Part shown: positions 27,145 to 48,140 of the stretch, one piece after another | Numbering within the stretch: the first letter of the stretch is position 1 | Layout: each line of letters opens with the position of its first letter | Assembly (NCBI GenBank): GCA_965656375.1 | Contig: CBFHKH010000001.1 | Coordinates: forward strand, 79,432-130,690 | From: Minisyncoccia bacterium | Lineage (GTDB): Bacteria; Patescibacteriota; Minisyncoccia; Phycocordibacterales; UBA9973 | Reading direction: 5' to 3' | DNA: 51,259 bases | Translations under genes and position numbers: made by a program | The notes under the pieces: model-generated | Seen by the model: only the letters and a program-made list of their open reading frames with translations | What the model was told of the DNA's origin: nothing | Databases searched by the model: none

Positions 27145-27804
27145 TTAATCATTAAAAATAATAAATTCTCCCGCATGTTTCAATGCTTGTGCTGGTTGAA
27201 CTCGGATAGGATGTTCATCTTCTAACTCTTTGAGAGTTTGCTTCTTGTTTTCTCCAACTGCATATACTACAACTTCATCTAATTTTGAGATAAGAGCTGG
27301 CGTGACCGTTACTCTCAAATATGCCCCTCCTTGATAGCTAGAAATAAAATCTAAACTTTCAGCTGCTGGACTTTCTGGAAGTATGCCCGCGGTGTGTCCA
27401 TCAGGACCGATACCAAACAAGCCAATTTTGTAGTCAGAATTTTCTATACATTTTTGCATGAATTCCTCACACTGCGCGACTGTGTTTTCGATAGTCTCAC
27501 CAGTCAGGAAAGGGTAGATATTCGCATTACCCAGAATAAGACCTGATTGGCGTAATTGTTCCCAGCTTGAATCGGTATGGCCACTCTCCCCATACCGCTC
27601 ATCAGTTAAGGTTATGGTGAGATTCGCAAGATCCATTCCTTCTAAAGCTTTCATTACGAGAACGGCAACTTTGATCGCTGAGCCGCCTGGAATTAAAAAA
27701 AGAACCTTCTTTTTATCAGAGAGTTTTTGTTTTAAAACTTCTGCAATATAGTCTGTTGCAGCTTGTGCGGGGTTTCCACTTGTGCGAAATTGAGCATTGG
27801 TCAT
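27145..27804 (-). CDS. pgl: 6-phosphogluconolactonase
   Basis: PGGS, LTDER, GIGPDGHTAGI, GENK; in an operon with gnd and zwf. Confidence 0.85.
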   Translation of the reverse strand: MTNAQFRTSGNPAQAATDYIAEVLKQKLSDKKKVLFLIPGGSAIKVAVLVMKALEGMDLANLTITLTDERYGESGHTDSSWEQLRQSGLILGNANIYPFLTGETIENTVAQCEEFMQKCIENSDYKIGLFGIGPDGHTAGILPESPAAESLDFISSYQGGAYLRVTVTPALISKLDEVVVYAVGENKKQTLKELEDEHPIRVQPAQALKHAGEFIIFND

Positions 27805-28065
27805 ATAAACGTATTCTAGCATATTCGTACTAATTCCATTATTTGAAAATATCGCTCTTTCTGGTATATTCTATCCATGTCACTCTCTATTGGAATGGAG
27901 TGAACACAATTCCGAATCCAGAAGGCGATGAAAATAAAAATGCAGCCGTTATTCCCTTTGAATTTGCGATAGAAATCCCTGAGACTGGGAAAAAGCAAGA
28001 TCAAATTAATAAAGTAACCAGCTGCGCTGCTTAAGCTAAAAATGAAATTGTGATATAGTTAAAGG

Positions 28066-28563
28066 GTGAAACTCCCGGGAGAAAATAATTATGCACTTAT
28101 TGATGGCGCAAACCTTCATAGAGGCTTACAAGCCCTTGGGTGGGATCTTGATTATAAGAAGTTCAGGGTTTGGCTGACTGACAAATTCTCTATTACACGT
28201 GCGTATATTTTCCTTGGGAATATTCCTAAATATAGCAAACTCTATGCTCACTTACAGGAATGTGGCTATACTCTTATTTTTAAAGAAGTGGTATATGATG
28301 GAAGCGGAAAAGCCAAAGGGAACTGTGATGCTGACCTGGTATTAAAAACAGTGCAGGAGTATTATGAAGGAGGTTATGATAAGGCCCTTATTATTTCAAG
28401 CGACGGAGATTATACCTCACTGGTAAATTTCTTGATAACAAAAGGTAAATTAAAAGCGATCCTTTCTCCGGCTAAAGAAAGTAAGTGTTCAGTATTACTG
28501 AAACGTACGGGAGCTAAAATATCATACATTAATGATCAACGATCTCATATTGAACTAAAATAA
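28066..28563 (+). CDS. NYN (LabA/DUF88, PIN-like) ribonuclease-domain protein
   Basis: ALIDGANL, KGNCDADLV and ISSDGDY acidic motifs. Confidence 0.85.
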   Translation: MKLPGENNYALIDGANLHRGLQALGWDLDYKKFRVWLTDKFSITRAYIFLGNIPKYSKLYAHLQECGYTLIFKEVVYDGSGKAKGNCDADLVLKTVQEYYEGGYDKALIISSDGDYTSLVNFLITKGKLKAILSPAKESKCSVLLKRTGAKISYINDQRSHIELK

Positions 28564-28613
28564 AAAAGCCCCCGATGGAGACAGAACTCCATAAGGGTCT
28601 TTTTCGTGGTTAT
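28560..28613 (-). ncRNA. Candidate ~50-nt small RNA convergent on the NYN gene
   Basis: Predicted from the promoter at 28620-28648. Folds as AAAAAGACCC / ATGGAG-N6-CTCCAT / GGGGCTTTTT and ends in a U-tract. Confidence 0.45.
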
Positions 28614-28619
28614 GTGCAC

Positions 28620-28648
28620 ATTATAACCATACCAGGATTTTTTTGCAA
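28620..28648 (-). promoter_or_regulatory. Sigma70-type promoter TTGCAA-N17-TATAAT
   Basis: TTGCAA at 28643-28648, exactly 17 nt spacer, TATAAT at 28625-28620 on the minus strand. Confidence 0.65.
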
Positions 28649-28734
28649 GTATTTGATTGGATAAAGACATTTTGCTAATCCTGCAAATTCCCCTCCCTTA
28701 CACCACATCATACAGATGGCTACAATGTAGCTAT

Positions 28735-30039
28735 ATGAGCGATATAACCTACATCGGCACTACCAACTGGCGTAACCAGAACAAACGTTTTGGTATCATC
28801 GACAAAGACAGGTTTGGGCACATCTATGTAATCGGTAAGACAGGTGTTGGCAAATCAACCCTGTTGTTAAATATGGCTGTTGCAGATATAAAAAACGGGA
28901 AAGGGCTTTGTATCATTGACCCCCACGGTGATATAGCGGAAGCTTTACTTGATCATATACCAGCTGAGAGGATAGAGGATGTAATATATTTCAACCCTAA
29001 AGATACCCGGTACCCCATAGGCTTCAATCCGCTGAAAGCAGTCCACCCAAATTACCATCACCTGGTGGCTTCAGGGCTTGTTTCAACATTCAAAAAGATA
29101 TGGGCTGATTCCTGGGGTCCGAGGCTTGAATACATTCTGCGCTTTGCTGTACTCACATTGCTTGAATACCCCAACGCCACTCTTCTTGATATCCAACCCT
29201 TGCTTACAGATACATACTTCAGGAACAAGGTGATGGCCTATGTAACAAATCCCCATACACAATCTTTCTGGACACATGAGTTTGATAAATACAGCCCCCA
29301 GTTCAAATCAGAAGCGATAACACCAATCCTTAACAAGACAGGTGTATTTCTGACAAGCATTCCACTGCGAAATACAGTCGGACAGACAACCAATAGTTTC
29401 AGGATGCAGCAGGTACTTGATGAGGGAAAAATATTAATCGTCAACCTTTCAAAAGGAGAACTAGGAGAAGATGCATCTTCCATATTAGGCAGTGTCCTGG
29501 TTACGTCTATCCAGTTGGCTGCTTTGTTCCGTTCAACCCAACAGGAACATGAACGCAAACCTTTTTATCTCTACGTAGATGAAATGCACTCTTTCATCTC
29601 CCTGTCATTTGCCGATATTTTGTCTGAAGCACGTAAATACAAGCTCTCCTTGTTTCTTACCCACCAGTATATTGAACAAATAGATGAAAGGATCAGGGCT
29701 GCTATATTTGGCAATGTGGGCACGCTCATATCATTCCGGGTTGGTGCAGAAGATGCAGCACACCTGGCCAAAGAATTCCAGCCTGAATTTGCGGAAGCTG
29801 ATTTTGTAATCCTTCCCAAATATCACATGTACCTAAAGCTGATGATTGAAGGGGCTAGTTCAAGACCCTTCAGTGCAACGACCCTGCCGCCTCAGGAAAC
29901 TTCAGGTAAAGTGAGGGATGCGGTAATAGCATGTTCACGCAGAAACCATGCGAGAAAACGGGAAGCTGTTGAGAAAAGTATTTTAAGCAAGTACCCCAAA
30001 TCAAAAGAAGCAAATAACAGAAAGGGGTTGTTTGATTAA
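28735..30039 (+). CDS. VirD4/TraG-like P-loop ATPase (start moved to ATG 28735)
   Basis: GKTGVGKS, DPHGD, LYVDEMHSF, EARKY; collinear with the 11807 ATPase domain. Confidence 0.85.
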   Translation: MSDITYIGTTNWRNQNKRFGIIDKDRFGHIYVIGKTGVGKSTLLLNMAVADIKNGKGLCIIDPHGDIAEALLDHIPAERIEDVIYFNPKDTRYPIGFNPLKAVHPNYHHLVASGLVSTFKKIWADSWGPRLEYILRFAVLTLLEYPNATLLDIQPLLTDTYFRNKVMAYVTNPHTQSFWTHEFDKYSPQFKSEAITPILNKTGVFLTSIPLRNTVGQTTNSFRMQQVLDEGKILIVNLSKGELGEDASSILGSVLVTSIQLAALFRSTQQEHERKPFYLYVDEMHSFISLSFADILSEARKYKLSLFLTHQYIEQIDERIRAAIFGNVGTLISFRVGAEDAAHLAKEFQPEFAEADFVILPKYHMYLKLMIEGASSRPFSATTLPPQETSGKVRDAVIACSRRNHARKREAVEKSILSKYPKSKEANNRKGLFD

Positions 30040-30163: not shown

Positions 30164-30775
30164 ATGACCACCTTCCAGCTTATACCGGAAATGTTCCCAA
30201 TGATATTTCTACTGTCCTTTGGCTCAGAGGAGTTTTCAATTTTTCTTGCTTTGCTTGTAATAGGCCTCATAGCGTATATCGTTATAAAAGCAACTAACCG
30301 GTCAATACGGGTAGTACATGCTCATTGGCATCATATGTTTGATACCAGGCCATTTGCCCCCAAAGAGTTCTATGAATACCTGAAGAATGATATACAAGAA
30401 AAAGGAATTGAAGGCATTTCATTCAGGGGAATAGTACACTCTGAACGGGGGCTTCTCTCTGCCAATCGTGCATATCTGCGAATACTGTATCGGGAATATA
30501 TGATTGATGTATGTGCCGCTCCTTTTGCCAAGGAAGCTTTCTTTGTTTCCTGGTGGCTTGGTGATGCCGGGATTACCTTTCGTGATTTTCTGATATGCAT
30601 ACCAGCTATCGGCAGATTATTCAGCCGGAGAGAAAAGACCTTTTATGAACAGGACACCGAGATCATGTTCAAAGAAATTATTGCAGGCTGTGTCAGAGAT
30701 GCGATTGAAAAGCTCACCGAAGAAAAAGGAAAGCGATTAACAATGGCAGATTGGAGAGGTTCCGATATTAAATAA
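30164..30775 (+). CDS. Hypothetical protein with an N-terminal TM segment
   Basis: 203-aa ORF in the same orientation between two ATPase genes; hydrophobic IFLALLVIGLIAYIVI. Confidence 0.7.
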   Translation: MTTFQLIPEMFPMIFLLSFGSEEFSIFLALLVIGLIAYIVIKATNRSIRVVHAHWHHMFDTRPFAPKEFYEYLKNDIQEKGIEGISFRGIVHSERGLLSANRAYLRILYREYMIDVCAAPFAKEAFFVSWWLGDAGITFRDFLICIPAIGRLFSRREKTFYEQDTEIMFKEIIAGCVRDAIEKLTEEKGKRLTMADWRGSDIK

Positions 30776-30783
30776 AGTAATCC

Positions 30784-33700
30784 ATGATGTCTCTTTCACA
30801 TGCTGAATACTACACGTATCAATACTATACGTGGGAATACCGGGGACGGGGTTGGTTTGTGGCAGAGCAGCCGGTATGTCTGGAACCTCCCTATATTCCT
30901 TTTTTCAGGCATGGATATACTCCTCAACATGTTGATGATGGCAAGCGACATACACTTGTAAGCAGGTTCATCGAGTACATTAAGGGCAAGAAACAGGAAC
31001 AACCTGGTGAACAAAAGGTATTAGATTATGAAGAACTGGAGCCTTTTGGTGTTGAAAAGGAAACTGGTTTAAAGGCGGTACAGGTAAAACTACCTAGAGA
31101 AAGGAAAATAACTCCAGAGAAGATGAAAGCATTGCTTGTGATGCTTTCGCAATCAGGTACAACCATTTCATTTGAAATAATCGGCACCGCAAAAGAGATT
31201 GTTCTACAATTTGTGTGCAGCGCTGCAGATATCACTATTACAAAAACATACCTGGAGGCATACTTCCCTGAGTATACACATATATCCAGTGATGAACTAC
31301 TTGAAAATATCATAGTTGAGAATAAGCAAACAGCCGTTATTGATTTTGGGTTGCAACAGGAGTTTGTCAGACCAATTCAAGTGGTAAAGAATTTTACTAT
31401 TGATCCGCTGACTGGACTATTTGGAATACTTGATCAACTTCATGGTGATGAACAGGCGGGAATACAAATACTTTTTCAGGGAACAGTAAACCACTGGAGT
31501 GAAAGCATTGTTCGCAGTGTTACGATGTCTGATGGTAGCTCATTCTTTAATGACGATCCCAATGCGCCAAAGGTTGCACTGGAGAAGATACAAAGCACAC
31601 TATTTGGTGTTACTATCCGGGCCTTCACACATGCAGATACACAAGCAGATTCATTCGGGATAGTGCAAAAGCTGAGTTATGCAATTATGAATGCTTCGGT
31701 AAGCACAATCAATCAATTAATACCGCTCTCATCCGAAGACTATGATTTTGAAACAAGGGTACGTGATATCTGTCTGCGTGAATCACACCGCTTGGGTATG
31801 CTGTTGAATGCAGATGAACTTACAACCCTGCTTCACTTCCCATCCGAGAGTATCAGCTCCAAAAAATTATTCGCTTCCATGCGAAAGACCAAGGAGGTAC
31901 CAGGCATAGCCAAAGGAAAGGCGTTTGTACTGGGAGAAAATTATCACAACGGTATAACAGGCAAAGTAACGTTTGGTATTGAGGACAGATTAAAGCATAC
32001 CCATATCATCGGAGCAACCGGCACGGGCAAATCAACCCTCATTGCAAACCTAATCACCCAGGATATTGAACAGGGTCATGGTATTGTACTCTTTGATCCA
32101 CACGGGGACCTGGTAGATGATGTTATTGCATCAATACCCGAGAAACGGATACAAGATGTGGTGCTGGTTGATCCGTCAGATACAGCATATTCAGTAGGGT
32201 TAAATATCCTTGAGGCCCATAGTGATGTCGAGAAGGAAGTACTTTCATCAGACCTGGTTGCTGCATTCAGGAAATATTCCACTTCCTGGGGCGACCAGAT
32301 GAATGCCGTTTTTGGTAATGCGATACTTGCAGTACTTGAAAATACAGAAGGAGGAACACTCAATGACATCCGGAGGTTCTTGATTGAAAAAGACTTCAGG
32401 CAAAAGTATCTTAAGAATGTAACCGACCCTTCGGTGATATATTACTGGCAGAAAGAGTATCCACTGATTAAAACAAATTCTATTGGCCCAATACTTACCA
32501 GGCTAAATACATTCCTGCGACCCCGTGCCATTCGCAATATGGTCATTCAGCATAAAGGGCTTGATTTTGAAACCCTGCTCAATACGAAAAAGATTGTTTT
32601 GCTTAAACTCTCACAGGGATTGATTGGTACTGAAAACAGTTTTTTGTTGGGTTCGTTAGTGCTTTCCAAAATTCACCAGGCCATATTCAGACGACAGCAA
32701 CAGGCCATTCGCAACCCGATCTTTCTGTACCTCGATGAGTTTCAGAACTTCATTACCCCATCTATCAAGGAAATGCTAAGTGGCATCAGGAAGTATAATG
32801 TCGGACTTACTTTATCCCACCAGGATTTACAGCAACTGCAACGGGAAGATGGAGAATTGTTAAACAGTGTCCTCGGCAACATCAATACCAGGATTGTGTT
32901 TCGAGTAGGTGAACCTGATGCAAAAAAACTTCAGGATGGCTTTACGGGCTTTGACTTTACAGATCTCCAGAATTTAAGCAGGGGAGAAGCTGTCATACGC
33001 ATAGAACAGCCACAGTATGATTGTTCGCTGGATACATTTGCGCTCAGGGAAGTATCAGGTGAACAGCGGAAGAGCAATATAGAATCCGTAACCGCCTTTT
33101 CACGGAAAGAGTATGCAAGTCCGAGGGAAGAAGTTGAAAAAATGCTTTTTGAAACCCTTGATCTTGAAATTCAACCAACAGAGAAGAATGATACCCCACT
33201 GCATGAAGTAAAAGAAAAGAAGCAAAAGGATGAGAAGCTTGTACCAGTTGTAACTGACACAGATAAGCCTGTAGCAACAGAGAAAAAATCTGAACCAACA
33301 AAAGAGGTAAAGGAAGGAAAAGACATAACCACTCACCGCTATTTGCAGACATTGGTAAAGAAGATGGCAGAATCAAGGGGGTATATCGCAGTTCTTGAAA
33401 CACAGGTGCCGGATGGTAGCGGGTTGGTAGATGTGTTACTTACCAAGGAGAACAAAACTACAGCCATTGAAATATGCAGCACTACTGATGCAGACTGGGA
33501 GATGCATAACATACAAAAGTGTATTGATGCAGGCTATGATACCATCATATCTCTCTGTGGTGATATAAAGCAGCTTGAGAAGATCAAAAAGAAATGTCTC
33601 GAATATATTCCTGCAATTACCGGAAAGGAAGTCTATTTCTTTACTCCTGATACACTTTTTGCATTTTTAGATACAGAAACCAAAGCAACAGTTCCCCCAG

Positions 33701-33831
33701 AACAGGTTATTAAAGGCTATCGGGTGAATGTAACCTATGATGCAGTTTCCCTTGAAGATATGCAGCGCAAACGGGCCTCTGTAGCACAAGTGGTGATGAA
33801 TTCGCTCAGAAAAAGAAAGAAGGGAAGTTAA
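30784..33831 (+). CDS. Large VirD4/TraD-like ATPase with an N-terminal extension and a C-terminal PD-(D/E)xK-like domain
   Basis: GATGTGKS, DPHGD, LYLDEFQNF, RKYNVGLTLSHQ; C-terminal HRYLQ...VDVLL...AIEIC. Confidence 0.8.
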   Translation: MMSLSHAEYYTYQYYTWEYRGRGWFVAEQPVCLEPPYIPFFRHGYTPQHVDDGKRHTLVSRFIEYIKGKKQEQPGEQKVLDYEELEPFGVEKETGLKAVQVKLPRERKITPEKMKALLVMLSQSGTTISFEIIGTAKEIVLQFVCSAADITITKTYLEAYFPEYTHISSDELLENIIVENKQTAVIDFGLQQEFVRPIQVVKNFTIDPLTGLFGILDQLHGDEQAGIQILFQGTVNHWSESIVRSVTMSDGSSFFNDDPNAPKVALEKIQSTLFGVTIRAFTHADTQADSFGIVQKLSYAIMNASVSTINQLIPLSSEDYDFETRVRDICLRESHRLGMLLNADELTTLLHFPSESISSKKLFASMRKTKEVPGIAKGKAFVLGENYHNGITGKVTFGIEDRLKHTHIIGATGTGKSTLIANLITQDIEQGHGIVLFDPHGDLVDDVIASIPEKRIQDVVLVDPSDTAYSVGLNILEAHSDVEKEVLSSDLVAAFRKYSTSWGDQMNAVFGNAILAVLENTEGGTLNDIRRFLIEKDFRQKYLKNVTDPSVIYYWQKEYPLIKTNSIGPILTRLNTFLRPRAIRNMVIQHKGLDFETLLNTKKIVLLKLSQGLIGTENSFLLGSLVLSKIHQAIFRRQQQAIRNPIFLYLDEFQNFITPSIKEMLSGIRKYNVGLTLSHQDLQQLQREDGELLNSVLGNINTRIVFRVGEPDAKKLQDGFTGFDFTDLQNLSRGEAVIRIEQPQYDCSLDTFALREVSGEQRKSNIESVTAFSRKEYASPREEVEKMLFETLDLEIQPTEKNDTPLHEVKEKKQKDEKLVPVVTDTDKPVATEKKSEPTKEVKEGKDITTHRYLQTLVKKMAESRGYIAVLETQVPDGSGLVDVLLTKENKTTAIEICSTTDADWEMHNIQKCIDAGYDTIISLCGDIKQLEKIKKKCLEYIPAITGKEVYFFTPDTLFAFLDTETKATVPPEQVIKGYRVNVTYDAVSLEDMQRKRASVAQVVMNSLRKRKKGS

Positions 33832-33867: not shown

Positions 33868-34086
33868 TTATTCAAAATCAAATAAATCCTTCACAGACAC
33901 CTTTAGTTCAAGCGCAATCAAAAAAAGCGTTTTAGCAGTAGGATTTCCATGCCCCTTTTCCAAGTAGTTCATCCACTGCCTGTCCTTATCAATCCGTAGT
34001 GCCAGCTCTGTTTGACTCAATCCTGATTTTTTACGGACAGCAGCGATATGTTTTCCGAGCTTTTTCTGAAAGGTATCAATACTCAT
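33868..34086 (-). CDS. XRE-family helix-turn-helix regulator
   Basis: GLSQTELALRIDKDRQWMNYLEKGHGNPT. Confidence 0.9.
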   Translation of the reverse strand: MSIDTFQKKLGKHIAAVRKKSGLSQTELALRIDKDRQWMNYLEKGHGNPTAKTLFLIALELKVSVKDLFDFE

Positions 34087-34124: not shown

Positions 34125-34160
34125 AAAAATATTGTAAAGATATATCTTTACAATATTTTT
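34125..34160. promoter_or_regulatory. Perfect 36-bp palindrome, probable operator
   Basis: AAAAATATTGTAAAGATATATCTTTACAATATTTTT between the divergent XRE and lipoprotein genes. Confidence 0.7.
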
Positions 34161-34245: not shown

Positions 34246-35025
34246 ATGCGAAACAATTTTCTTTACCTGATTATTCTCACCGTATTCCTAGTATCCTGTG
34301 GAAGTTCACGCAATACGACTACTTCTGAACCTCCACTTATGCGTATCCCTGCCAAGTTTGATTTCAGTCCACCGTTTCGGGGAGTGGCAGGCTCAACCGG
34401 TATCACGATTGCCATAGTAAAGCCAACCTATGTAGGCAAGAATGCCGAGTACTATGTACCACCCTTCAATGAAATGGCTGCCAGTATGGGCAATGACTTT
34501 GAAGAACTCTTAACCGCCAAAGGCTTTACTATGAGGGGACCTTTTGGCTCACGGGATGAAATGGTGTATAACGACAAGATAAACTCAAGCTTTATCCTTG
34601 AGATCGGCATCGAACTTACCCCGCAATATAACCGGAAGTATGCCACTAGCACCAAAACAAACTGGGGCTCTATTCTTGACAAAAATGCTCCGGCAACTAT
34701 ATCAACACAGAGGATGAGTGGGGAAATAACCATTGCGGGGAATCTGGTCATCAATGCTAAATCCTCTCAGTACGGAGAACTGATATGGAAGAAGAACATT
34801 TCCCTTGAAGCCACTTCATTCACCTATGCAGGATCTCTCACCTGGGACGGTGTGCCAACGATGGCTGAAGAACTGAAGAAGGATAACCAGGTGTATAATA
34901 CACTTTCTTCTGAACTAGAGAAGTTCTATCAAAAAGCCTTAAGCCTTGCCTGGCAGCAGATTGACCCTGCTGAAATGAAGTCTGTGGCAGAACAGGCAAA
35001 GAAAGCAGACAAGAAAGGAAATTGA
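34246..35025 (+). CDS. Lipoprotein of unknown function (start moved to ATG 34246)
   Basis: MRNNFLYLIILTVFLVSC lipobox. Confidence 0.75.
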   Translation: MRNNFLYLIILTVFLVSCGSSRNTTTSEPPLMRIPAKFDFSPPFRGVAGSTGITIAIVKPTYVGKNAEYYVPPFNEMAASMGNDFEELLTAKGFTMRGPFGSRDEMVYNDKINSSFILEIGIELTPQYNRKYATSTKTNWGSILDKNAPATISTQRMSGEITIAGNLVINAKSSQYGELIWKKNISLEATSFTYAGSLTWDGVPTMAEELKKDNQVYNTLSSELEKFYQKALSLAWQQIDPAEMKSVAEQAKKADKKGN

Positions 35026-35034
35026 TATCACAAG

Positions 35035-35072
35035 AATGCTAACCGGTATGTAGAACTGGTTAGTATTCTTTT
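35035..35072 (+). terminator. Probable intrinsic terminator
   Basis: AATGCTAACCGGT...ACTGGTTAGTATT stem (with G-U pairs) followed by CTTTT. Confidence 0.5.
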
Positions 35073-35368
35073 GACTCAAATATTTCTTGAGCAGAAAGTT
35101 AATGACCAGTAGTATAATGAAGGCGAAACCGGTAGAAAAAATTCTACTCCTACATAAATAAGCAAAAAAATTTTGCTGAGTTCAAATTTTAATTATACGT
35201 TTATGTAACAAAAGAAAACTAACCTTCATTACCCGTTTGTTTTTAATCCAATCTCCCTTGTAAAAGCAGTTTCAAGCAAGCATAAGAAAAATGTATCTAT
35301 CTGTTGTGTAGTGTACCTACTGCAATAGAGGTCTATTTAATTAAATTGTTTAAAACAAACCAGCCCCT

Positions 35369-36817
35369 ATGAGTCGTACCCGACTCTTCATAACAACCCT
35401 GATCATGCTTGCTGCGCAATGCTGCACAGCACAGACTGACAGCGTATTAAAAAGCCTGGAGAACCTCCAGAAAGTCCCCGTTAAATATTTAGATGCTGTT
35501 GAGAACAAGATAGATAAATACAGCAACCGCATAACCGGCAAAACCGAAAAAACACTTGCCAAGTTGAGCAAGTGGGAGAATAAAATCAAAAGCATTTTAG
35601 ACCAGGTTAGTCCTGAAACTTCCGACAAACTATTTGGCAATAATGCCACCACTTTTACCAGTCTGCTTAAAAAACTGCAGGAGGGTAAAGCTATTGCAGA
35701 AGGGTACAAAACAAAATACAACGAGTACCGCGATAAACTAACAACCAGTGTAAAATACCTGGAAGATCAGAAAGACAAGCTGGATAAAAAGTTTGTGCAA
35801 CCCATCAGCAATACCAAAAAGAAACTGGAGGAACTGGAAAAGGATGTAAACAATACCGAAGCAGTGGAAGCTTTTATCAAAGAACGAAAAAAGCAACTGG
35901 TTGATGAAGCTTTCAAGTATTTGGGAAAAAGCAAGTACCTGACTAAGATAGACAAGGAGGCTTACTATTATGTGGAAACACTGCGTAACTACAAAGAGTT
36001 GTTCAACGACAAAAAGAAAGCTGAAGAGCTGGCGCTGAAACTGCTGAATAAAATCCCGGCTTTTACTGAGTTTGCCCAAAAGAACAGTATGCTGGCGCAG
36101 TTATTCGGCTCGCCATCGGGTGGGGGTAATATGGCAAACCTGGCCGGGCTGCAAACCCGTGCAGGTGTCAATGCTTTGATACAGAACCGGCTGGCAGCGG
36201 GTGGCCCCAGCGCCCGGGAAGCTTTCAGCCAGAACATGCAGCAGGCACAAGCCGAACTTACCCAATTAAAAGACAAGATCATGAAAGTCGGTGGCAGCAG
36301 CAGCGAAGCCAATATACCCAGCTTTAAACCCAACGAACAGAGATCAAAAACCTTTTTACAGCGGCTTGAGTTTGGCAGCAATTTTCAGTTTGCCAAAAAC
36401 AACAGCCTGGTGCCCACCACTGCTGACATTGCACTGAGTGTTGGGTACAAACTGAATGATAAATCAATCATTGGTATTGGTGCCAGTTATAAAATGGGAC
36501 TGGGCAGCATACAGCGCATCAGCATCAGCCACCAGGGCATCGGGCTCAGAAGTTTTATAGACTGGAAACTGAAGAAACAGTTTTTTGTAACCGGCGGGTT
36601 TGAGATGAATTACAATGCCCGGTTCAAAAATATAGATCAGCTGCAGAATTATAGCGACTGGCAGCAAAGCGGGTTAGTGGGACTGACCAAGAAATTAAAC
36701 ATCAAAACAAAATTCTTTAAAGGCACCAGTGTACAGTTATTGTACGATATGCTGTACCGGCAACACAACCCGGTTAGTCAGCCGGTGCTGTTTAGGATGG
36801 GTTATAGTTTTAAATAA
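35369..36817 (+). CDS. Exported protein: coiled-coil N-terminal half, probable outer-membrane beta-barrel-like C-terminal part
   Basis: Signal peptide ending CTA|Q, long K/E/L helical region, amphipathic beta-strand pattern, ends LFRMGYSFK. Confidence 0.6.
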   Translation: MSRTRLFITTLIMLAAQCCTAQTDSVLKSLENLQKVPVKYLDAVENKIDKYSNRITGKTEKTLAKLSKWENKIKSILDQVSPETSDKLFGNNATTFTSLLKKLQEGKAIAEGYKTKYNEYRDKLTTSVKYLEDQKDKLDKKFVQPISNTKKKLEELEKDVNNTEAVEAFIKERKKQLVDEAFKYLGKSKYLTKIDKEAYYYVETLRNYKELFNDKKKAEELALKLLNKIPAFTEFAQKNSMLAQLFGSPSGGGNMANLAGLQTRAGVNALIQNRLAAGGPSAREAFSQNMQQAQAELTQLKDKIMKVGGSSSEANIPSFKPNEQRSKTFLQRLEFGSNFQFAKNNSLVPTTADIALSVGYKLNDKSIIGIGASYKMGLGSIQRISISHQGIGLRSFIDWKLKKQFFVTGGFEMNYNARFKNIDQLQNYSDWQQSGLVGLTKKLNIKTKFFKGTSVQLLYDMLYRQHNPVSQPVLFRMGYSFK

Positions 36818-36836
36818 GTAATTCAATAATAATCTT

Positions 36837-39800
36837 ATGGTAAAAATGTTGTTTAGAAAATGTGTAGTTCTTGCAGTTTTTATTGCTGCAACATCGAAGT
36901 TACATGCACAGGCACAGGAAAATAATCCAATCAGTAAGATCACGATTGCGTCCCCAACGGCTGCATCACTTGGAAAATATGCTGATATACCTGTCAATTA
37001 TCATACTGGCATCCCCAAAGTTGATATACCTATTTATACAGTCTCTGCGGGACCATTATCATTGCCAATAAGCCTGAGTTATCATGCAGGGGGACTTAAA
37101 GTCCAAGAACCTGCAAGCTGGGTTGGAGCTGGCTGGGCATTGAATGCGGGAGGCGTGATAACCAGGAGCGTTATGGGCTCTCCTGATGAAAAGGGTACAA
37201 ATAACGGCGGGATCGAATTTAACGGTCATTTTAGCGATTATGGATATAATAATTATATCTGGAATCCGACATTGGGAGGGGGTAATTTCACAGGTGGTGA
37301 AGATTGGAAATTTGTTGCAGAAGGAAGACTGGATGGAGAGCCGGATCTTTTCTTTTTTAATTTTGGAGAATATAGCGGTAAATTTTATTTCCGGGACGAC
37401 AGGACGCCTGTTATCGTACCCGAGGCCGATTTTAAAATTGAACCTTATTATAATCCGCAGGGCAATATAAAAAGCATTCAAAGTTTTATAATAACCACTC
37501 CTGATGGGGTTAAATACTATTTTGGACAAACACCAGGTTTAACAGGTGTGGTGCCCATAGAAATTACCAATCCGGCAACACCCAACAATGGCGTTTCATC
37601 AGCTAATGTATATTCTAGCTGGTACTTAAATAAAATTACCACCGCTGATGAGCAGTTTTCTATTACACTCACCTATGCCACGGAAGACTACGGGTATCAT
37701 ACAGTTTCAATGTTCCCTATTGATGGTTCAGAACCGGCAGGAGGATACCCCACTTTTGGCGCAGCTCATGGGTATGACCTGGTAAAAAATATGGTTCATG
37801 GGGTAAGACTTAGCCAAATATCATTTCCTAACGGAACTGTTATTTTTTCAACCGATGGTATGTCTGCAAGATCAGATCTTAGTGATACAAATCCCTATTA
37901 TAATGCAGATGGATTAAATCAAAACGCAAAACCACTTGGAGCAATTGTGATCACGGATGGTACAAATCCTGTAAAGAAGTTTAATTTTTCATACGGATAT
38001 TTTGAAGATAATACAACACCCATACCACAGGATATAGCCAATTTTGCTCCTAATTTATTCACTGATAAAAAGCGATTGAGGCTTGACCAGGTCCAGGAAA
38101 TATCCGGTGATAATTCATTAAACAAACCACCCTATAGTTTTACTTATTTTAGTGAGCAGGTTCCCCGTCGGTTGAGTTTTAGCATCGATCATTGGGGTTT
38201 TAATAACGGGGTCACTAATAATACAGGATTAATACCCTCCTACCTTGAAACTACATTTAGCCATACAACCTCTCACCCCGGTGCCGACAGGGACTCTTAC
38301 TGGCCGGCAATGAGAGCAGGAAGTTTGCAGCAAATAAATTATCCTACCGGGGGATTCTCTCTTTTTGAGTTCGAAGCTAATACTGTTTATAATACCAACA
38401 CATCTAATGTTAATGTGCCATTGAGTAATCTAACTGTACATCTTTATGGCCAGAATACGTATACAAACAGCTCCGTATTTACAAGCAATGGGGCTTTTAT
38501 GAATCTTTCTGTAAACAACGGCACCAATTATCCTGCAGTATTTACCATCACAGATAACACTAATACCATTATTCATACCCAGAGTGTTCCGGAATATCAG
38601 AATTTCAGTGGTACCGTACCAATGTATCCGCAGGGAACTTATACTGCTAGGCTTACAATAAATAACAACTCTACAGGTGGTGCCCAATCTTCATTATCGC
38701 AATGGCAAACTGTTACAACAATCAATGACGTAATTGTTGGTGGCAACAGAATAAAAAAAATAACACATAATGACGGAGTTACAACAAATAACATGATCAC
38801 TAATTATGATTACAATGCTGATAATAATCATTCAAGCGCTATTTTATTCAGCAGGCCCGCTTATGTAGGTATTTTAAGAAATGATTTTATCAGGGATGTT
38901 GGCCTCCTGGATCCTTACTACGGTTACCAACCCACTTATGGAACTTATGGTTGTGCATATTGCAACTTGGATGGGGTGTGTTATTTCAAGTCGACTAACA
39001 GCATACGCCCGATGGCAACAACACAAGGTAATCCTTTAGGCTATTCACAGGTAAAAGTGTCACAAACAGGCAATGGCTATAGTATTTATAAATACTACGG
39101 TCCTACAAATGTTCAACCCTGGCAGGTTAATAACGGCGATATAGCTGTACGTACTGTAAACAGGCAAAATTGTGATAATAATTCTCAAAGTTATCCCTTT
39201 GCCCCATTGCCATATGATTTTCTGCGTGGCGAATTAAAGTATGAAGCACGCTTTAATGAGGCCAGTCAAATGCTTCAGGAAAAAATATATACGCCGGTTT
39301 ATGTAAACAATCCCATAAAGACACCGGGGCTGATTGCAACATCTACCGGAGCAGGTACTATCTTATCTACCAAATATGAATTAACCACAGCCCGTAAAAC
39401 ACAATCACAAGTAATTGAAACAAATTATGACCCGGCAACCAATACATCTTTAACAACAACCAGTACCTCGTACTTTGAAAGTCCGTTTCATAATAATGCT
39501 ACCCGAACTTCTGCTACAAACTCGAAAAATGAAGTATTGGAAACAAAGATGAAGTATGCTTTTGACTTCAGGATATCAAACTGTGAAAGTATTAGTGATG
39601 GATATGCACAATACAATACCGATTGTGCCACATGCCTTGCCAATAAAAATGCAGCCACTACAGCTTGTGGCAGTAATAATATTTGCCGAACCAATGCATA
39701 TCTCACTTATATGCATTGCCTGAACACTGCTAGGTCAAACTGGGTTGCTTACAGGCGTACAAATTTTACCGATCCGGTAAATACTTTTAAAACAAATCAT

Positions 39801-41006
39801 GATAATGCGAAAACAGGAGCAGATGCTGAATTAAAACCCATTTTGCAGCTCCAGGATGATTATTCAAACAACGCAATTGAAACTTCGAAATGGAAAAACG
39901 GCAATTTACTTGGCTCTACCTTCAGCAGGTTTGATTACAGTTCAAATCCGGCTGGTAAAGTATATATAAATAAGGTACAGACAATTAACCTGGGTGCTGC
40001 TTCTTCCACTTTCACTATTTCAAATACTAATGGAAGCAATAATGGTTTAATTAAAGACAACCGTTACCAAGATGAATCTTTTGCTAAATTCTACAATGGT
40101 AACCTGGCTGAGCTAACCTCCAGGGATGGCATAACCACTGCCTACATTTGGGGCTATAACAATACCTTGCCGATTGTAAAATCAATTGGAGTAAGCCATA
40201 GTACTTTATTATCAGCTTATAACGCAGTTGGAGGCAATCTTTCTCAACTTCGAAGCCAGCCTTCTATAAGCGGCGCCCAGTTAAATACGTATGTGTATAC
40301 ACCAATAACCGGAATGACTGCTGAAACAGATGTGAATGGAAAGAGTATGACCTATGAATATGATGCATTGCAAAGATTGCTACTGATCAGGGACTTTAAT
40401 AATAATATCATTAAGCAGTATGAGTACAAATACCAGGTTATGCCTCCGTCCGGCGCAGCTCAATGGATTGCCACCGGAGCCACCCGCTGTAAACCATGCC
40501 CGCAAAACAACAATTACATCAGCAATATTTTGCAGCAGGAGGAAAAGGATAACAATCCTCAAAGTGCCAGCTATAATACGCTACGCTGGACAGATATTGG
40601 TATTAGCAATGTTTGTGTATCAGTTGCAGATTGGCAAAATTCTTCTTTGGCTATACGTTGCCGGGTGTCGGATATTTCCGGCCAAAATACAGGCGAACAG
40701 GAACAGCAACAAATAGATATGAACCCATGCAGCAGTACCTACGGTCAGACAAGGTGGGTTGTGGTAGGTATTAATTACAGCATTTGCCCGCTTCCTGCAG
40801 GTTGCAGCAGCACAAACTGCACCGGGGTAGATAAAAAGTGTATTAACAATAATTGTGAAACAGGATCCAAAGTATATACAGGATCATACTTTGACAAAAA
40901 GACCGGGCAGTGGATGTGTATTTATCATTACCACTGGAGCGATGGAAGCAATAGTGTCGATTATTACGAACCTTCAACCGGGCAATGTATGTCAGGCGGA
41001 CTCTAA
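36837..41006 (+). CDS. Exported YD/RHS-repeat protein with an SpvB/TcB-like N-terminus and a Cys-rich C-terminal extension
   Basis: Signal peptide ending LHA|Q; TGIPKVDIPIY...LSLSYH...WVGAGWAL; YD-like repeats such as YEYDALQRL; no DPxG core motif seen. Confidence 0.8.
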   Translation: MVKMLFRKCVVLAVFIAATSKLHAQAQENNPISKITIASPTAASLGKYADIPVNYHTGIPKVDIPIYTVSAGPLSLPISLSYHAGGLKVQEPASWVGAGWALNAGGVITRSVMGSPDEKGTNNGGIEFNGHFSDYGYNNYIWNPTLGGGNFTGGEDWKFVAEGRLDGEPDLFFFNFGEYSGKFYFRDDRTPVIVPEADFKIEPYYNPQGNIKSIQSFIITTPDGVKYYFGQTPGLTGVVPIEITNPATPNNGVSSANVYSSWYLNKITTADEQFSITLTYATEDYGYHTVSMFPIDGSEPAGGYPTFGAAHGYDLVKNMVHGVRLSQISFPNGTVIFSTDGMSARSDLSDTNPYYNADGLNQNAKPLGAIVITDGTNPVKKFNFSYGYFEDNTTPIPQDIANFAPNLFTDKKRLRLDQVQEISGDNSLNKPPYSFTYFSEQVPRRLSFSIDHWGFNNGVTNNTGLIPSYLETTFSHTTSHPGADRDSYWPAMRAGSLQQINYPTGGFSLFEFEANTVYNTNTSNVNVPLSNLTVHLYGQNTYTNSSVFTSNGAFMNLSVNNGTNYPAVFTITDNTNTIIHTQSVPEYQNFSGTVPMYPQGTYTARLTINNNSTGGAQSSLSQWQTVTTINDVIVGGNRIKKITHNDGVTTNNMITNYDYNADNNHSSAILFSRPAYVGILRNDFIRDVGLLDPYYGYQPTYGTYGCAYCNLDGVCYFKSTNSIRPMATTQGNPLGYSQVKVSQTGNGYSIYKYYGPTNVQPWQVNNGDIAVRTVNRQNCDNNSQSYPFAPLPYDFLRGELKYEARFNEASQMLQEKIYTPVYVNNPIKTPGLIATSTGAGTILSTKYELTTARKTQSQVIETNYDPATNTSLTTTSTSYFESPFHNNATRTSATNSKNEVLETKMKYAFDFRISNCESISDGYAQYNTDCATCLANKNAATTACGSNNICRTNAYLTYMHCLNTARSNWVAYRRTNFTDPVNTFKTNHDNAKTGADAELKPILQLQDDYSNNAIETSKWKNGNLLGSTFSRFDYSSNPAGKVYINKVQTINLGAASSTFTISNTNGSNNGLIKDNRYQDESFAKFYNGNLAELTSRDGITTAYIWGYNNTLPIVKSIGVSHSTLLSAYNAVGGNLSQLRSQPSISGAQLNTYVYTPITGMTAETDVNGKSMTYEYDALQRLLLIRDFNNNIIKQYEYKYQVMPPSGAAQWIATGATRCKPCPQNNNYISNILQQEEKDNNPQSASYNTLRWTDIGISNVCVSVADWQNSSLAIRCRVSDISGQNTGEQEQQQIDMNPCSSTYGQTRWVVVGINYSICPLPAGCSSTNCTGVDKKCINNNCETGSKVYTGSYFDKKTGQWMCIYHYHWSDGSNSVDYYEPSTGQCMSGGL

Positions 41007-41017: not shown

Positions 41018-41545
41018 ATGAAATTATTAGCAACCTTATTATTGATTACGGGAGGTTTCCTTCCTTCCAGTATTTATACAAAGCAATTTACCAACCTGGA
41101 GGGCACCAATATAAGCCTGGCGCAATATCAGGGTAAAAGAATTTTACTGGTAAATGTTGCCTCGCAAAGCGAATATGCCGCTGAGCAGTTGCCGCAACTG
41201 GAACAATTGTACCAGCAACATAAAGACAGCCTAGTGGTAATCGCATTCTCGTCAAATGACTTTGGTAATGAACCACGCACTGATGCAGAGATTAAATTGT
41301 TGATGCAGTACAGTTATGATGTTCATTTTCCGGTATCAGTAAAGTGTACAGTTAATGACGGCGTTGCAAACACCCATCCTGTTTATGTCTGGCTTCAAAA
41401 TCAAAATGAGAATGGGAGCCTGGGGGTGAAAGTGCAAAAGGATTTTCAAAAATATGTAATAGATAAGGATGGAACACTGATCGGCGTTTTTGGAGCTAAG
41501 ACAAAGCCAATGGACAGTGCGATCATTAAAACCATCACACAATAA
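41018..41545 (+). CDS. Glutathione-peroxidase-like (thioredoxin-fold) exported protein lacking the peroxidatic Cys
   Basis: YQGKRILLVNVASQSEY, AFSSNDFG.EP, HPVYVWL and FQKYVIDKDG align by eye with GPx motifs. Confidence 0.8.
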   Translation: MKLLATLLLITGGFLPSSIYTKQFTNLEGTNISLAQYQGKRILLVNVASQSEYAAEQLPQLEQLYQQHKDSLVVIAFSSNDFGNEPRTDAEIKLLMQYSYDVHFPVSVKCTVNDGVANTHPVYVWLQNQNENGSLGVKVQKDFQKYVIDKDGTLIGVFGAKTKPMDSAIIKTITQ

Positions 41546-46093: not shown

Positions 46094-46110
46094 AATTTTA
46101 ATTCAATAAT

Positions 46111-47158: not shown

Positions 47159-47892
47159 AGGTCTCTCAAAGAACCATTTCGACAAAGACACCCGCCAAAA
47201 CAAAAGAACAATTGCGATTACCTTTTTGAAGCCCTTTGATTGCATCGCAATACTTCTTTTGCCCTTCGGGTTGCTTCGCAATTTTGTCACATTCTTTGTA
47301 GCTCAATGTTCCTTTGTTCAGGAAACTCCTGTGTCTGAAAAGCAACTACACCCTCACTCTTTTACCCATACTTCGCTCTGGCTTGGTTTCGTGTAGCTAG
47401 GCTATTGTATTTCAGTACGGCAATAGCTACCCAAACCATAATACTATTCCTCAGCTATTTGCACGTATTTCATACAATGCTTTCCATACACTTCACCATG
47501 CCCCGCTTGTATGGAAGTTCCGGTATAGTCCCTTTTCATCCACCCGTTTCCAATAATTTGGCGAGCCGGCGGCCACTGTCTGCGTTTGGTGCTGCCGTCA
47601 CAAGGCTACCCCTATACCTTTGTATGCTCTATGGCAGCACCGCACTGTGTATTCAGATTCCTTACAGTCATACCCCTAAATACGCCATCCAGTGGCGCTC
47701 GCAGACCCATCCAATCGTACCTCATTCCTGTGTCTTTGCTGGCTCGCCCCGGAGCTACGGTGTTGAAAGCTTTCAACACGGCTCTGGCTTCTTTTGGCTG
47801 AGGGCTCCTTTACCGGAAAATATTAACAGAGAAAAAAATGACAGGAAGATTAACAAAAATATTTATATATTGTGTGTGTTAAAACCGAAATG

Positions 47893-48126: not shown

Positions 48127-48140
48127 AAATTAATTCTAGT

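What the first reader, a model, noticed from the sequence alone, without database searches (positions are those of the whole stretch)
28600..28760. Abrupt switch from CPR-like to Bacteroidota-like DNA
Left: housekeeping genes, TGnTATAAT-type promoters, frequent TCGA/CGAT words. Right: only accessory genes, TAnnTTTG promoter boxes (34166, 50947), signal peptides ending A|Q (35369, 36837, 41573, as common in Bacteroidota), DUF6443-like RHS and Bacteroidota-type Crp, with visibly fewer TCGA words. The last left-type signal ends at 28648 and the first right-type gene starts at 28735. I see no integrase, tRNA or direct repeat at the join. The simplest explanation is misassembly or concatenated contigs; if real, it is a >22-kb transfer between a probable host lineage and an episymbiont.
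Basis: partly seen in the sequence, partly recalled or inferred. Interest (0 to 1): 0.75.

Follow-up and report, generated by a model that had tools for sequence, protein, structure and literature searches.

The report
Chitinophagaceae-type island integrated in CPR chromosome
The abrupt change in DNA style is real and is not an assembly error: it is the left end of a 50-kb mobile element carrying Chitinophagaceae (Bacteroidota)-type DNA, which a large serine recombinase inserted precisely into the start of the ychF gene of an ultra-small Paceibacteria (CPR) bacterium.

Summary
The compositional break is real (CpG ratio 1.00 vs 0.64; TCGA 5.2 vs 1.0 per kb; p~1e-8). The left side is Paceibacteria, syntenic with a Paceibacteria MAG at 42-85% aa. 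The right side is Chitinophagaceae-type: it is syntenic with a 1.25-Mb Chitinophagaceae contig, and a cargo protein is 65-86% identical to Chitinophagaceae/Ferruginibacter proteins. The join is attL of a site-specific integration. The window keeps the last 47 codons of a large serine recombinase (LSR) gene. The rest of that gene lies 50,274 bp downstream, outside the window, where composition returns to CPR type. attL, attR and an unintegrated attP from another sample share the core ATTGGAAT. The rebuilt attB is the 5' end of the CPR ychF gene (MSLSIGIVGLPNVGKST), and the element supplies a replacement start that restores a 373-aa YchF. An independent k=31 assembly runs through both junctions. 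Misassembly is therefore rejected. This LSR family is widespread in Patescibacteria, and most homologues end in frame-shifted ychF sequence. Read-level confirmation and identification of a donor are still missing.

The parts
27145..27822 (-). pgl (6-phosphogluconolactonase), the last CPR-type gene left of the island. It heads the pgl-gnd-zwf run on the minus strand.
   Evidence: Pfam Glucosamine_iso 3e-26; left-type composition.
27843..27870 (+). Native ychF promoter of the CPR genome (TTGAAA-16-TATATT with TG before the -10). After integration it points into the island.
   Evidence: Promoter scan 10/12 with TG. The ATG at 27877 follows 7 nt after the -10, like other leaderless-looking left-side genes.
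27877..27896 (+). Orphaned 5' stub of CPR ychF (ATG TCA CTC TCT ATT GGA AT = MSLSIG...). In the integrated state it reads MSLSIGME* and stops at 27903.
   Evidence: Joining it to the sequence after the attR core gives MSLSIGIVGLPNVGKST, the YchF P-loop N-terminus.
27889..27896 (+). attL common core ATTGGAAT, with inferred central dinucleotide GG at 27892-27893. This is the true CPR / island junction.
   Evidence: The same 8 bp occur in attR (L090 11619-11626) and in attP (L089). Flanks switch partner exactly here. attP has dyad symmetry around GG: 14/22, 14/22 and 12/22 in three relatives.
27891..28034 (+). 3' remnant (47 codons plus stop) of the large serine recombinase gene, split off by integration.
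   Evidence: Translation WNGVNTIPNPEGDENKNAAVIPFEFAIEIPETGKKQDQINKVTSCAA* matches the C-terminus of the intact 587-aa LSR of L089. The other 540 codons are at the far end of the island (P0052, 564 aa).
28066..28563 (+). NYN-domain protein, the first complete island gene.
   Evidence: Pfam NYN 1e-12; 97% aa identical to L089 and 82% to L091, in both cases directly after the LSR gene.
28564..28734 (.). NYN-ATPase intergenic spacer inside the island.
   Evidence: It lies within the 91% identical block 27883-34154 shared with L089. A terminator-like hairpin lies at 28568-28582 and a chance-level promoter match at 28620-28648.
28735..30039 (+). TrwB/VirD4-like soluble ATPase (434 aa), island copy.
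   Evidence: Pfam TrwB_AAD_bind, DUF87. It is 76-77% identical to L003 (Chitinophagaceae) and L004, 63-69% to other Bacteroidota MAGs, 50-56% to many Patescibacteria loci and 51% to the left-side paralogue 11807-14107.
30164..30775 (+). 203-aa protein of unknown function, conserved in the module.
   Evidence: Homologues follow the ATPase in L004 (63%), L033, L005 and L003.
30784..33831 (+). 1015-aa TrwB/TraG-like ATPase, island copy.
   Evidence: Pfam; 71% to L003 and 65% to L005 and L091; PADLOC mad8 8e-23.
33868..34086 (-). 72-aa HTH (Cro/C1-type) regulator.
   Evidence: Gene call and Pfam HTH_3 on the Logan contig.
34125..34160 (.). 36-bp perfect palindrome. It explains why k=31 contigs break here in two samples.
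34246..41006 (+). Cargo genes of 259, 482 and 1386 aa, with no known domains.
   Evidence: Syntenic with L003 at 68, 43 and 23%. The 482-aa protein is 65-86% identical to 119 of the 120 listed hits (the other is the query itself); every organism-named one is Chitinophagaceae or Ferruginibacter, on contigs up to 4.7 Mb.
41018..41545 (+). Glutathione peroxidase-like protein (175 aa).
   Evidence: Pfam GSHPx 8e-21.
41573..46944 (+). DUF6443 RHS-repeat protein (1506 aa) followed by a 277-aa protein that may be its immunity partner (inferred).
   Evidence: Pfam DUF6443 5e-43; NCBIfam Rhs_assc_core 3e-10.
47498..51259 (.). Further cargo: a 155-aa protein, a 77-aa protein (-), a 647-aa terpene-cyclase/prenyltransferase-like protein, an LRAT-like protein (-), a 95-aa protein (-), and a Crp-like gene cut by the window end (50991 onward, -). 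The island continues to window-equivalent 78,163.
   Evidence: Beyond the window come Gabija GajA/GajB, SSB, a second LSR, RR/HK, an IS3 transposase, ArdC, RadC, a tyrosine integrase and the split LSR.

Best explanation
The window crosses attL of a 50,274-bp integrative element sitting in the chromosome of a Paceibacteria (CPR/Patescibacteria) bacterium. A large serine recombinase (LSR) encoded by the element recombined its attP with an attB. The attP lies inside the 3' end of the LSR's own gene and is a dyad centred on GG within the core ATTGGAAT. The attB lies in the first codons of the CPR ychF gene, in the conserved P-loop coding region. Integration therefore (i) left the ychF promoter and six codons at attL, followed by the last 47 codons of the LSR gene and then the NYN and ATPase genes. 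It (ii) left a 564-aa LSR with a new frame-shifted tail at attR, 50 kb away. It (iii) rebuilt a full-length ychF at attR, using a start codon and N-terminal codons carried by the element (MSHYVLS- in place of MSLS-). The element's composition and cargo are of Chitinophagaceae type and are not ameliorated, which suggests the acquisition is recent. Shown: the discontinuity, both junctions, the common core, the rebuilt attB, the restored ychF, and the affinities of both sides. Inferred: that this LSR catalysed the event, the direction and timing of transfer, and any host-episymbiont relationship.
For: Composition. The left side is Paceibacteria: L069 is syntenic over 399-19870 at 42-85% aa, and the >=90% cluster of protein 399-1874 carries Nomurabacteria, Parcubacteria and Paceibacterota names. 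The right side is Chitinophagaceae-type. L003 (a 1.25-Mb Chitinophagaceae contig) is syntenic at 76/36/71/68/43/23%. The 482-aa cargo protein matches Chitinophagaceae/Ferruginibacter proteins at 65-86%. The second LSR shares a 90%-identity cluster with MBK8609369.1, a Chitinophagaceae protein on a 1.79-Mb contig. Physical continuity: Logan contig ERR15116721_13288 equals window 23700-34154 at 100%, with the join at an internal position. All sampled proteins from both sides lie on one 840,184-bp NCBI contig. The island is bounded: on Logan contig _1503 the truncated LSR (P0052) is followed by ychF, a SET-domain gene, sigma-70, a Sua5-family gene and leuS, and composition flips back to the left type at L090 11,594-11,626. 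Site-specific signature: L089, from another run, is 91% identical from 27883 rightwards and 93% identical up to the attR core. It carries the intact 587-aa LSR directly upstream of NYN. attL, attR and attP share ATTGGAAT. The rebuilt attB reads MSLSIGIVGLPNVGKST, and the restored ychF ORF is 373 aa. attP dyad symmetry around GG holds in three relatives. Generality: a 54%-identical LSR abuts ychF in L093, whose YchF is 84-86% identical to Staskawiczbacteria YchF. About 85 of the 121 LSR-family sequences examined end in a frame-shifted translation of the ychF P-loop region: 50 by an explicit pattern match and most of 39 others by inspection. Every organism-named one of these is Patescibacteria, apart from one Woesearchaeota label.
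Against: No reads or coverage were available, and the two assemblies probably derive from the same run. They exclude an assembler artefact but not a minority subpopulation. Taxon labels are those of the MAG submitters. The LSR and TrwB-like ATPase backbone belongs to families that are predominantly Patescibacteria. 'Bacteroidota origin' is therefore secure only for the composition and the cargo. No near-identical donor was found: the best outside match is 91-94% nt (L089), and its host is unknown. Some 5.6 kb of the island were never seen. No relaxase or T4SS was seen, so the route of entry into the CPR cell is unknown. Expression of island genes in the CPR cell is untested.
Confidence: 0.85

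Rival explanations
1. Misassembly or concatenation: a CPR contig and a Chitinophagaceae contig were joined artificially.
For: The sharp composition and taxonomy switch is by itself typical of chimeric contigs. No read-level data were available. Logan k=31 contigs do break at 23700 and at 34131-34154.
Against: The join lies in the interior of an independent k=31 contig at 100% identity. The 34.1-kb break is explained by a 36-bp palindrome that also ends the contig in another sample. The foreign DNA has CPR DNA on both sides. The two junctions share only 8 bp, too short to mislead any assembler. They are reciprocal products that rebuild an intact ychF start and an intact LSR gene. The same LSR-ychF fusion recurs in dozens of other assemblies.
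Confidence: 0.03
2. The island is a native Patescibacteria mobile element with its own composition, and the Chitinophagaceae affinity is secondary. In this view the Chitinophagaceae-labelled copies reflect transfers from CPR or mis-binned contigs, so nothing moved from Bacteroidota into the CPR genome.
For: The LSR family and the TrwB-like ATPase family are overwhelmingly Patescibacteria. The ychF-mimicking start carried in attP (L[SA]IG) resembles CPR YchF N-termini. Mobile elements often differ in composition from their hosts.
Against: The module ATPase-203aa-ATPase-259aa-482aa-1386aa is syntenic with a 1.25-Mb Chitinophagaceae contig. Of the 120 listed homologues of the 482-aa cargo protein, the 119 other than the query are 65-86% identical, and the organism-named ones are all Chitinophagaceae or Ferruginibacter, on contigs of 0.69, 2.1 and 4.7 Mb, too large for CPR genomes. 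The island's dinucleotide signature matches L003 along its whole 21 kb. DUF6443 RHS proteins are, from general knowledge, a Bacteroidota feature.
Confidence: 0.1
3. Random uptake of host DNA by natural transformation, followed by illegitimate recombination, with no dedicated recombinase involved.
For: CPR bacteria are thought to take up foreign DNA. The recombinase gene looks truncated at the join when only the window is seen.
Against: The 'truncated' gene is completed exactly at the other end of the island. The breakpoints fall on the same 8-bp core at the centre of a dyad-symmetric attP. The target gene is restored in frame, and the same target is used by many relatives.
Confidence: 0.02

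Closest known systems
Large serine recombinase (serine integrase) integrative elements and prophages, e.g. Bxb1, phiC31, A118 and Tn5397-type elements (reviewed in PMC3783163 and PMC3556126; otherwise general knowledge)
   Same: Resolvase + Recombinase + zinc-ribbon architecture. A short common core instead of long direct repeats (Bxb1 also has an 8-bp core, from general knowledge). A dyad-symmetric attP around a non-palindromic central dinucleotide. Integration into a conserved host gene.
   Different: attP lies inside the 3' coding region of the recombinase gene itself, so integration swaps the enzyme's C-terminal tail (587 to 564 aa). The element carries a replacement 5' end for the target gene ychF. 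The recipients are Patescibacteria. No close relative was found in phage or plasmid collections (<=33% and <=31% identity).
SSV1-type (fusellovirus) integrases of Sulfolobus, whose attP lies within the int gene so that integration partitions it (general knowledge, not checked in a paper here)
   Same: The recombinase gene is split by its own integration reaction, and the two parts end up at opposite ends of the integrated element.
   Different: Those are tyrosine recombinases of archaeal viruses that target tRNA genes and are split into two large parts. Here a serine recombinase loses only about 47 C-terminal codons and targets a protein-coding gene.
Genomic islands and horizontal transfers reported in Patescibacteria MAGs (PMC12455944)
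   Same: [quoted passage not shown]
   Different: Those calls were made by composition and by MetaCHIP on single genes with mean divergence of 23.7%, described as mostly not recent and mostly within Patescibacteria. Here a single 50-kb, non-ameliorated island is delimited to the base, with attL, attR, attP and attB and the responsible recombinase family identified.
Pneumococcal defective prophage next to ychF (PMC8637289, citing Chen et al. 2019)
   Same: A prophage integrase gene lies immediately upstream of ychF, and the element influences ychF expression.
   Different: That attB lies in the intergenic region between a DUF951 gene and ychF and is used by a tyrosine integrase. Here the crossover is inside the ychF coding sequence and is made by a serine recombinase.

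Membership tests
Large serine recombinase integrative element | Recombinase with Resolvase catalytic domain, Recombinase domain and zinc ribbon, and a conserved catalytic serine | tested here: met
   Pfam Resolvase + Recombinase + Zn_ribbon_recom on P0051 and P0052. The motif YARVS with S19 is invariant in the five-sequence alignment.
Large serine recombinase integrative element | attL and attR are reciprocal products that share only a short core with attP, and combine to give an intact attB | tested here: met
   The 8-bp core ATTGGAAT occurs in attL, attR and attP. The rebuilt attB is an uninterrupted ychF 5' end.
Large serine recombinase integrative element | attP with imperfect dyad symmetry around a non-palindromic central dinucleotide | tested here: met
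   The best symmetry centre is GG, with 14/22, 14/22 and 12/22 matches in L089, L091 and L092 at the homologous position. attB symmetry is weak at 8/22.
Large serine recombinase integrative element | Existence of the unintegrated (attP) form and of empty attB sites | tested here: inconclusive
   attP-intact relatives exist in other samples (L089 at 91-94% nt, L091, L092). Whether they are circular is unknown. No empty attB of this species could be looked for, because it has no >=90% relatives.
Large serine recombinase integrative element | Catalytic activity and a directionality factor | not testable with these tools
   Requires in vitro or in vivo recombination assays.
Integrative conjugative element (ICE) | Relaxase plus a type IV secretion system mating-pair apparatus | tested here: not met
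   Only two soluble TrwB/VirD4-like ATPases, ArdC, RadC and SSB were seen. No relaxase, VirB4 or membrane T4SS genes appear in the 44.7 kb of island examined. 5.6 kb remain unseen. It is better called an integrative genomic island or a possibly mobilizable element.
Prophage | Capsid, terminase, portal and tail genes | tested here: not met
   None appear in the Pfam or NCBIfam results. The LSR has no close relative in IMG/VR (<=33%).
Chimeric or misassembled contig | The join is not reproduced by an independent assembly, or coincides with a shared repeat or a contig end | tested here: not met
   The join is internal to a Logan contig at 100% identity. Only 8 bp are shared. A reciprocal second junction exists.
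Gabija defence system (cargo, outside the window) | Adjacent GajA (OLD-family ATPase/TOPRIM) and GajB (UvrD-like helicase) | tested here: met
   PADLOC GajA 1e-290 and GajB 2e-222 on adjacent genes at L086 5402-9291.

The most novel reading that the evidence does not exclude
The island is a dual-host shuttle element. It is maintained in Chitinophagaceae cells with its attP intact, held there by one of its other integrases. It enters the Paceibacteria episymbiont of those cells and integrates into the symbiont's ychF, using an LSR family specialised for Patescibacteria. Integration swaps the LSR's conserved C-terminal tail, which gives the enzyme a built-in integration/excision switch. If so, the junction is direct physical evidence both for a Chitinophagaceae host of an uncultured Paceibacteria lineage and for routine large-scale DNA traffic between a host and a CPR episymbiont. 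The ychF P-loop site would then be a natural landing pad for genetic tools across the CPR.
Probability: 0.3. Interest if true: 0.9.

Novelty: new variant of a known kind. Interest (0 to 1): 0.75.

Why it matters
Hosts of most Paceibacteria are unknown, and reported gene transfers into CPR genomes are mostly single, old, intra-CPR events (PMC12455944). This case is a 50-kb, non-ameliorated block of Chitinophagaceae-type DNA carrying an RHS toxin, Gabija and regulators. It is delimited to the base inside a CPR chromosome, and the enzyme family and target site are identified. That gives a testable host hypothesis for an uncultured lineage. It also reveals a recombinase family that repeatedly uses the conserved ychF P-loop region of Patescibacteria as its attachment site, which makes it a candidate tool for organisms that are very hard to manipulate genetically. 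Finally, it shows an unusual arrangement for serine integrases: attP lies inside the recombinase gene, the recombinase tail is swapped on integration, and the target gene is repaired. It is also a caution for MAG curation, because a composition-based 'contamination' filter would wrongly remove this region.

Tried and rejected
1. Promoter and Shine-Dalgarno contrasts. TAnnTTTG and TGnTATAAT counts do not separate the two sides, and neither side uses SD motifs, so they do not discriminate.
2. tRNA as integration site. The only tRNAs (Leu at 20439-20521, Trp at 21984-22055) are far from the join.
3. A second large contig hinted at by the look-up of encoding contigs was first read as a separate Chitinophagaceae genome. 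The listing of cluster members showed it is most likely the 840,184-bp parent contig, which carries proteins of both sides. The exact-match index is incomplete.
4. The Logan contig break at 34131-34154 was considered as an alternative misjoin. It is a 36-bp palindrome present in two samples.
5. Phage origin: no close LSR relatives in IMG/VR. Plasmid origin: <=31% (LSR) and <=42% (ATPase) identity in PLSDB.
6. Literature searches found no report of this element, of an LSR attP inside its own gene, or of the run accessions.
Full report
OBSERVATION

The window changes character abruptly. On the left, 1-kb blocks have a CpG odds ratio of 1.00+/-0.15 and 5.2 TCGA per kb. On the right the values are 0.64+/-0.11 and 0.96 per kb (Mann-Whitney p about 1e-8 for each). 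GA/TC falls from 1.17 to 0.85 and CC/GG rises from 0.92 to 1.21. G+C content hardly changes.

A strand-symmetric third-order Markov log-likelihood ratio peaks near 27,928.

The left side carries murA (with an HTH fusion), murB, alr, miaA, zwf, gnd, pgl, a uracil-DNA glycosylase, a methyltransferase and two tRNAs, plus a block of paralogous large proteins. The right side carries accessory genes.

TAnnTTTG is no more frequent on the right, TGnTATAAT is equally rare on both sides, and neither side uses Shine-Dalgarno motifs.

WHO IS ON EACH SIDE

A scan of species-representative genomes used the four TrwB-like ATPase paralogues of the window as query, followed by tblastn of all window proteins against the retrieved loci.

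- Left side. It is syntenic with a Candidatus Paceibacteria MAG (L069) at 85, 51, 78, 42, 76, 76 and 58% aa over 399-19870. The 90%-identity cluster of protein 399-1874 carries Nomurabacteria, Parcubacteria and Paceibacterota names.
- Right side. It is syntenic with a 1.25-Mb Chitinophagaceae contig (L003) at 76, 36, 71, 68, 43 and 23% aa for six consecutive genes, and with other Chitinophagales contigs.
- Cargo. The 482-aa cargo protein gave 120 listed homologues, 119 of them (all but the query itself) at 65-86% identity. Every organism-named one is Chitinophagaceae or Ferruginibacter, on contigs up to 4.7 Mb.
- Second recombinase. A second recombinase of the island shares a 90%-identity cluster with a Chitinophagaceae protein on a 1.79-Mb contig.

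The two-origin claim is therefore correct and can be narrowed to Paceibacteria versus Chitinophagaceae-type DNA.

One complication is that the first right-side gene is 51% identical to a left-side paralogue. Its wider family is mostly Patescibacteria at 50-56% identity, with a Bacteroidota sub-group at 57-77%.

IS THE JOIN REAL?

- Exact-protein look-ups found a Logan contig of run ERR15116721 (10,455 bp) that equals window 23700-34154 without a mismatch. The join sits 4.2 kb from its end.
- All ten sampled proteins from both sides lie on one NCBI contig of 840,184 bp, a size typical of a whole CPR genome.
- The next Logan contig (_1503, 61.7 kb) starts at window 34131. The break between the two contigs is a 36-bp perfect palindrome (34125-34160), which also ends a contig in another sample.

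WHAT THE JOIN IS

A 90%-cluster relative of the NYN protein led to a 38-kb contig from a different run (L089).

- L089 is 91.2% nt identical to the window from 27883 to 34154 and unrelated to the left of that point.
- In L089 an intact 587-aa large serine recombinase (LSR) gene ends just upstream of NYN.
- The window retains only its last 47 codons, at 27891-28034.
- The 90%-identity cluster of that LSR contains a 564-aa protein (P0052) on the same 840-kb contig.
- Its locus (L090) lies on Logan contig _1503 at 42.4-44.1 kb, which is window-equivalent 76.5-78.2 kb.
- Immediately after it come ychF, a SET-domain gene, a sigma-70 gene, a Sua5-family gene and leuS. Composition flips back to the left type at L090 11,594-11,626.

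The foreign DNA is therefore an island of 50,274 bp, measured core to core, with CPR DNA on both sides.

THE JUNCTIONS

Aligning attL (window), attR (L090) and attP (L089) shows an 8-bp common core, ATTGGAAT, at which the flanks exchange partners.

- Joining the left flank of attL to the right flank of attR gives ATGTCACTCTCT-ATTGGAAT-CGTAGGTCTGCCGAACGTCGGAAAGTCGACG. This reads MSLSIGIVGLPNVGKST, the start and P-loop of YchF.
- The native ychF promoter (TTGAAA-16-TATATT with TG, 27843-27870) and six codons remain at attL.
- At attR the element contributes ATGTCCCATTATGTTCTGTCC ahead of the core. An intact 373-aa YchF beginning MSHYVLSIGIVGLPNVGKST is thereby restored.
- The LSR reading frame runs into ychF out of frame and ends after 564 aa.
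- attP has its best dyad symmetry around the GG of the core in three relatives: 14/22, 14/22 and 12/22.

These are the expected products of serine-integrase recombination between an attP inside the 3' end of the integrase gene and an attB in ychF. No assembler could produce them by error.

HOW GENERAL IS IT?

- A metagenome scan with the LSR found L091, a 195-kb contig with an LSR at 71% identity. It is attP-intact and is followed by NYN, both ATPases and the 482-aa gene.
- The same scan found L093, with an LSR at 54% identity that abuts ychF. The L093 YchF is 84-86% identical to Candidatus Staskawiczbacteria YchF. L093 is therefore a second CPR lineage with this family integrated at ychF.
- A profile search returned thousands of homologues. 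121 family sequences were examined: the 120 listed hits plus the L089 LSR.
  - About 85 (median 549 aa for the pattern-matched set) end in tails such as NRNRRSAKRRKIDAF. This is the frame-shifted translation of the GIVGLPNVGKSTLFN coding region, stopping at the TT-TAA created by Phe-Asn. An explicit pattern classified 50 of them, and most of a further 39 unclassified ones show the same tail by eye.
  - About 35 (32 by pattern; median 576 aa) keep a conserved tail with an IPFEF-like motif. These are the unintegrated form.
  - Every organism-named integrated form is Patescibacteria, apart from one Woesearchaeota label. One attP-intact form is labelled Flavobacteriales.
- Phage and plasmid collections hold nothing close.

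ISLAND CONTENT

Inside the window:
- NYN protein
- two TrwB/VirD4-like soluble ATPases, which also hit the PADLOC mad8 model
- an HTH regulator
- three Chitinophagaceae-type proteins without known domains
- a glutathione peroxidase
- a DUF6443 RHS protein with a possible immunity gene
- a terpene-cyclase-like protein
- an LRAT-like protein
- a Crp-like regulator

Beyond the window:
- a Gabija pair (GajA 1e-290, GajB 2e-222)
- SSB
- a second LSR
- a response regulator and histidine kinase
- proline dehydrogenase
- an IS3-type transposase
- ArdC and RadC
- a tyrosine integrase
- the split LSR

No relaxase, T4SS or phage structural genes were seen, so the element is an integrative island rather than a demonstrable ICE or prophage. 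5.6 kb were not seen.

INTERPRETATION AND LIMITS

Shown:
- the discontinuity
- its exact position
- both junctions, the shared core and the rebuilt attB
- the restored ychF
- the affinities of both sides
- recurrence of the LSR-ychF fusion in Patescibacteria

Inferred:
- that this LSR made the insertion
- that the event is recent (unameliorated composition)
- that the cargo came from a Chitinophagaceae cell

Open:
- Direction and route of transfer are unknown. The backbone families are CPR-typical, so the element may shuttle between the two lineages.
- It is unclear how attP-intact copies persist in large contigs.
- It is unknown whether Chitinophagaceae are the physical hosts of this Paceibacteria.

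No reads were available, and the two assemblies probably share the same reads. Taxon names are those given by the submitters.

COMPARISON WITH WHAT IS KNOWN

The mechanism is that of large serine integrases, and the tested membership features are met. It differs from them in three ways: attP lies within the integrase gene, integration swaps the integrase C-terminus, and the target gene is repaired.

The closest analogy for a self-splitting integrase gene is the SSV1-type tyrosine integrase of archaeal viruses (general knowledge).

Genomic islands and Bacteroidota-to-Patescibacteria gene transfers have been reported statistically (PMC12455944). Those were not resolved at this level or at this size.

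I rate the finding a new variant of a known kind, with high interest for CPR biology.

Noticed in passing
window 399-14107: A left-side (CPR) block has two TrwB/VirD4-like ATPases (399-1874, 11807-14107) bracketing five paralogous proteins of about 550-580 aa (29-45% identical to each other; three carry treble-clef zinc-finger hits), plus a small nucleotidyltransferase. Similar blocks occur in other Patescibacteria loci (L072, L079, L065, L040, L050). Function unknown.
   Followed up: partly
window, gene starts on the left side (e.g. 9701, 10081, 11807, 18807, 18848, 20576, 22291, 27877): Many CPR-side genes have a TATAAT-like box 5-12 nt upstream of the ATG and no Shine-Dalgarno motif, which suggests widespread leaderless transcripts. 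The island genes also lack SD motifs (0 of 15).
   Followed up: partly
window 17296-18807 (-): MurA (EPSP_synthase fold) carries an N-terminal Cro/C1-type HTH domain, an unusual fusion.
   Followed up: no
window 19872-20480 (-) and tRNA-Leu 20439-20521 (-): A LAGLIDADG-domain ORF overlaps the 3' part of tRNA-Leu(CAA). It may be a homing-endonuclease remnant or a mis-called start.
   Followed up: no
window 34125-34160: A 36-bp perfect palindrome (AAAAATATTGTAAAGATATATCTTTACAATATTTTT) lies between the HTH gene and the cargo genes. It ends k=31 contigs in two independent samples.
   Followed up: yes
L086 5402-9291 (island, window-equivalent about 51.6-55.5 kb): A complete Gabija pair (GajA 709 aa, GajB 584 aa) is carried by the island into the CPR genome.
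   Followed up: yes
L004 1-4700 (contig CAYHMN010000013.1, MAG labelled Candidatus Saccharibacteria): Composition flips at about 2 kb between rluA-rplS (left-type) and a 512-aa serine recombinase followed by an ATPase 77% identical to the island's. This may be a second CPR/Bacteroidota-type junction that uses a different recombinase and site.
   Followed up: partly
L093 11,540-11,700 (Ga0137321_1000002): In the Staskawiczbacteria-like locus the LSR ORF overlaps the ychF start, and two tandem copies of the ychF 5' end lie 60 bp apart. The crossover point there is unresolved.
   Followed up: partly
proteins P0296-P0414: The unintegrated LSR forms share a conserved C-terminal tail (…NG.NT…IPFEF…) that integration removes. 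This suggests the tail has a function linked to the direction of recombination.
   Followed up: partly
window 28735-30039 and 30784-33831: Both island ATPases hit the PADLOC 'mad8' model (1e-17, 8e-23) more strongly than the HerA models, and give weak NCBIfam hits to archaeal Ced DNA-import ATPases. Their role (DNA translocation, defence or transfer) is open.
   Followed up: no
whole window: GATC (5.1 vs 1.9 per kb) and TCGA are depleted, and CCGG is enriched (0.8 vs 3.5 per kb), on the island relative to the CPR side. This is compatible with different restriction-modification histories.
   Followed up: no
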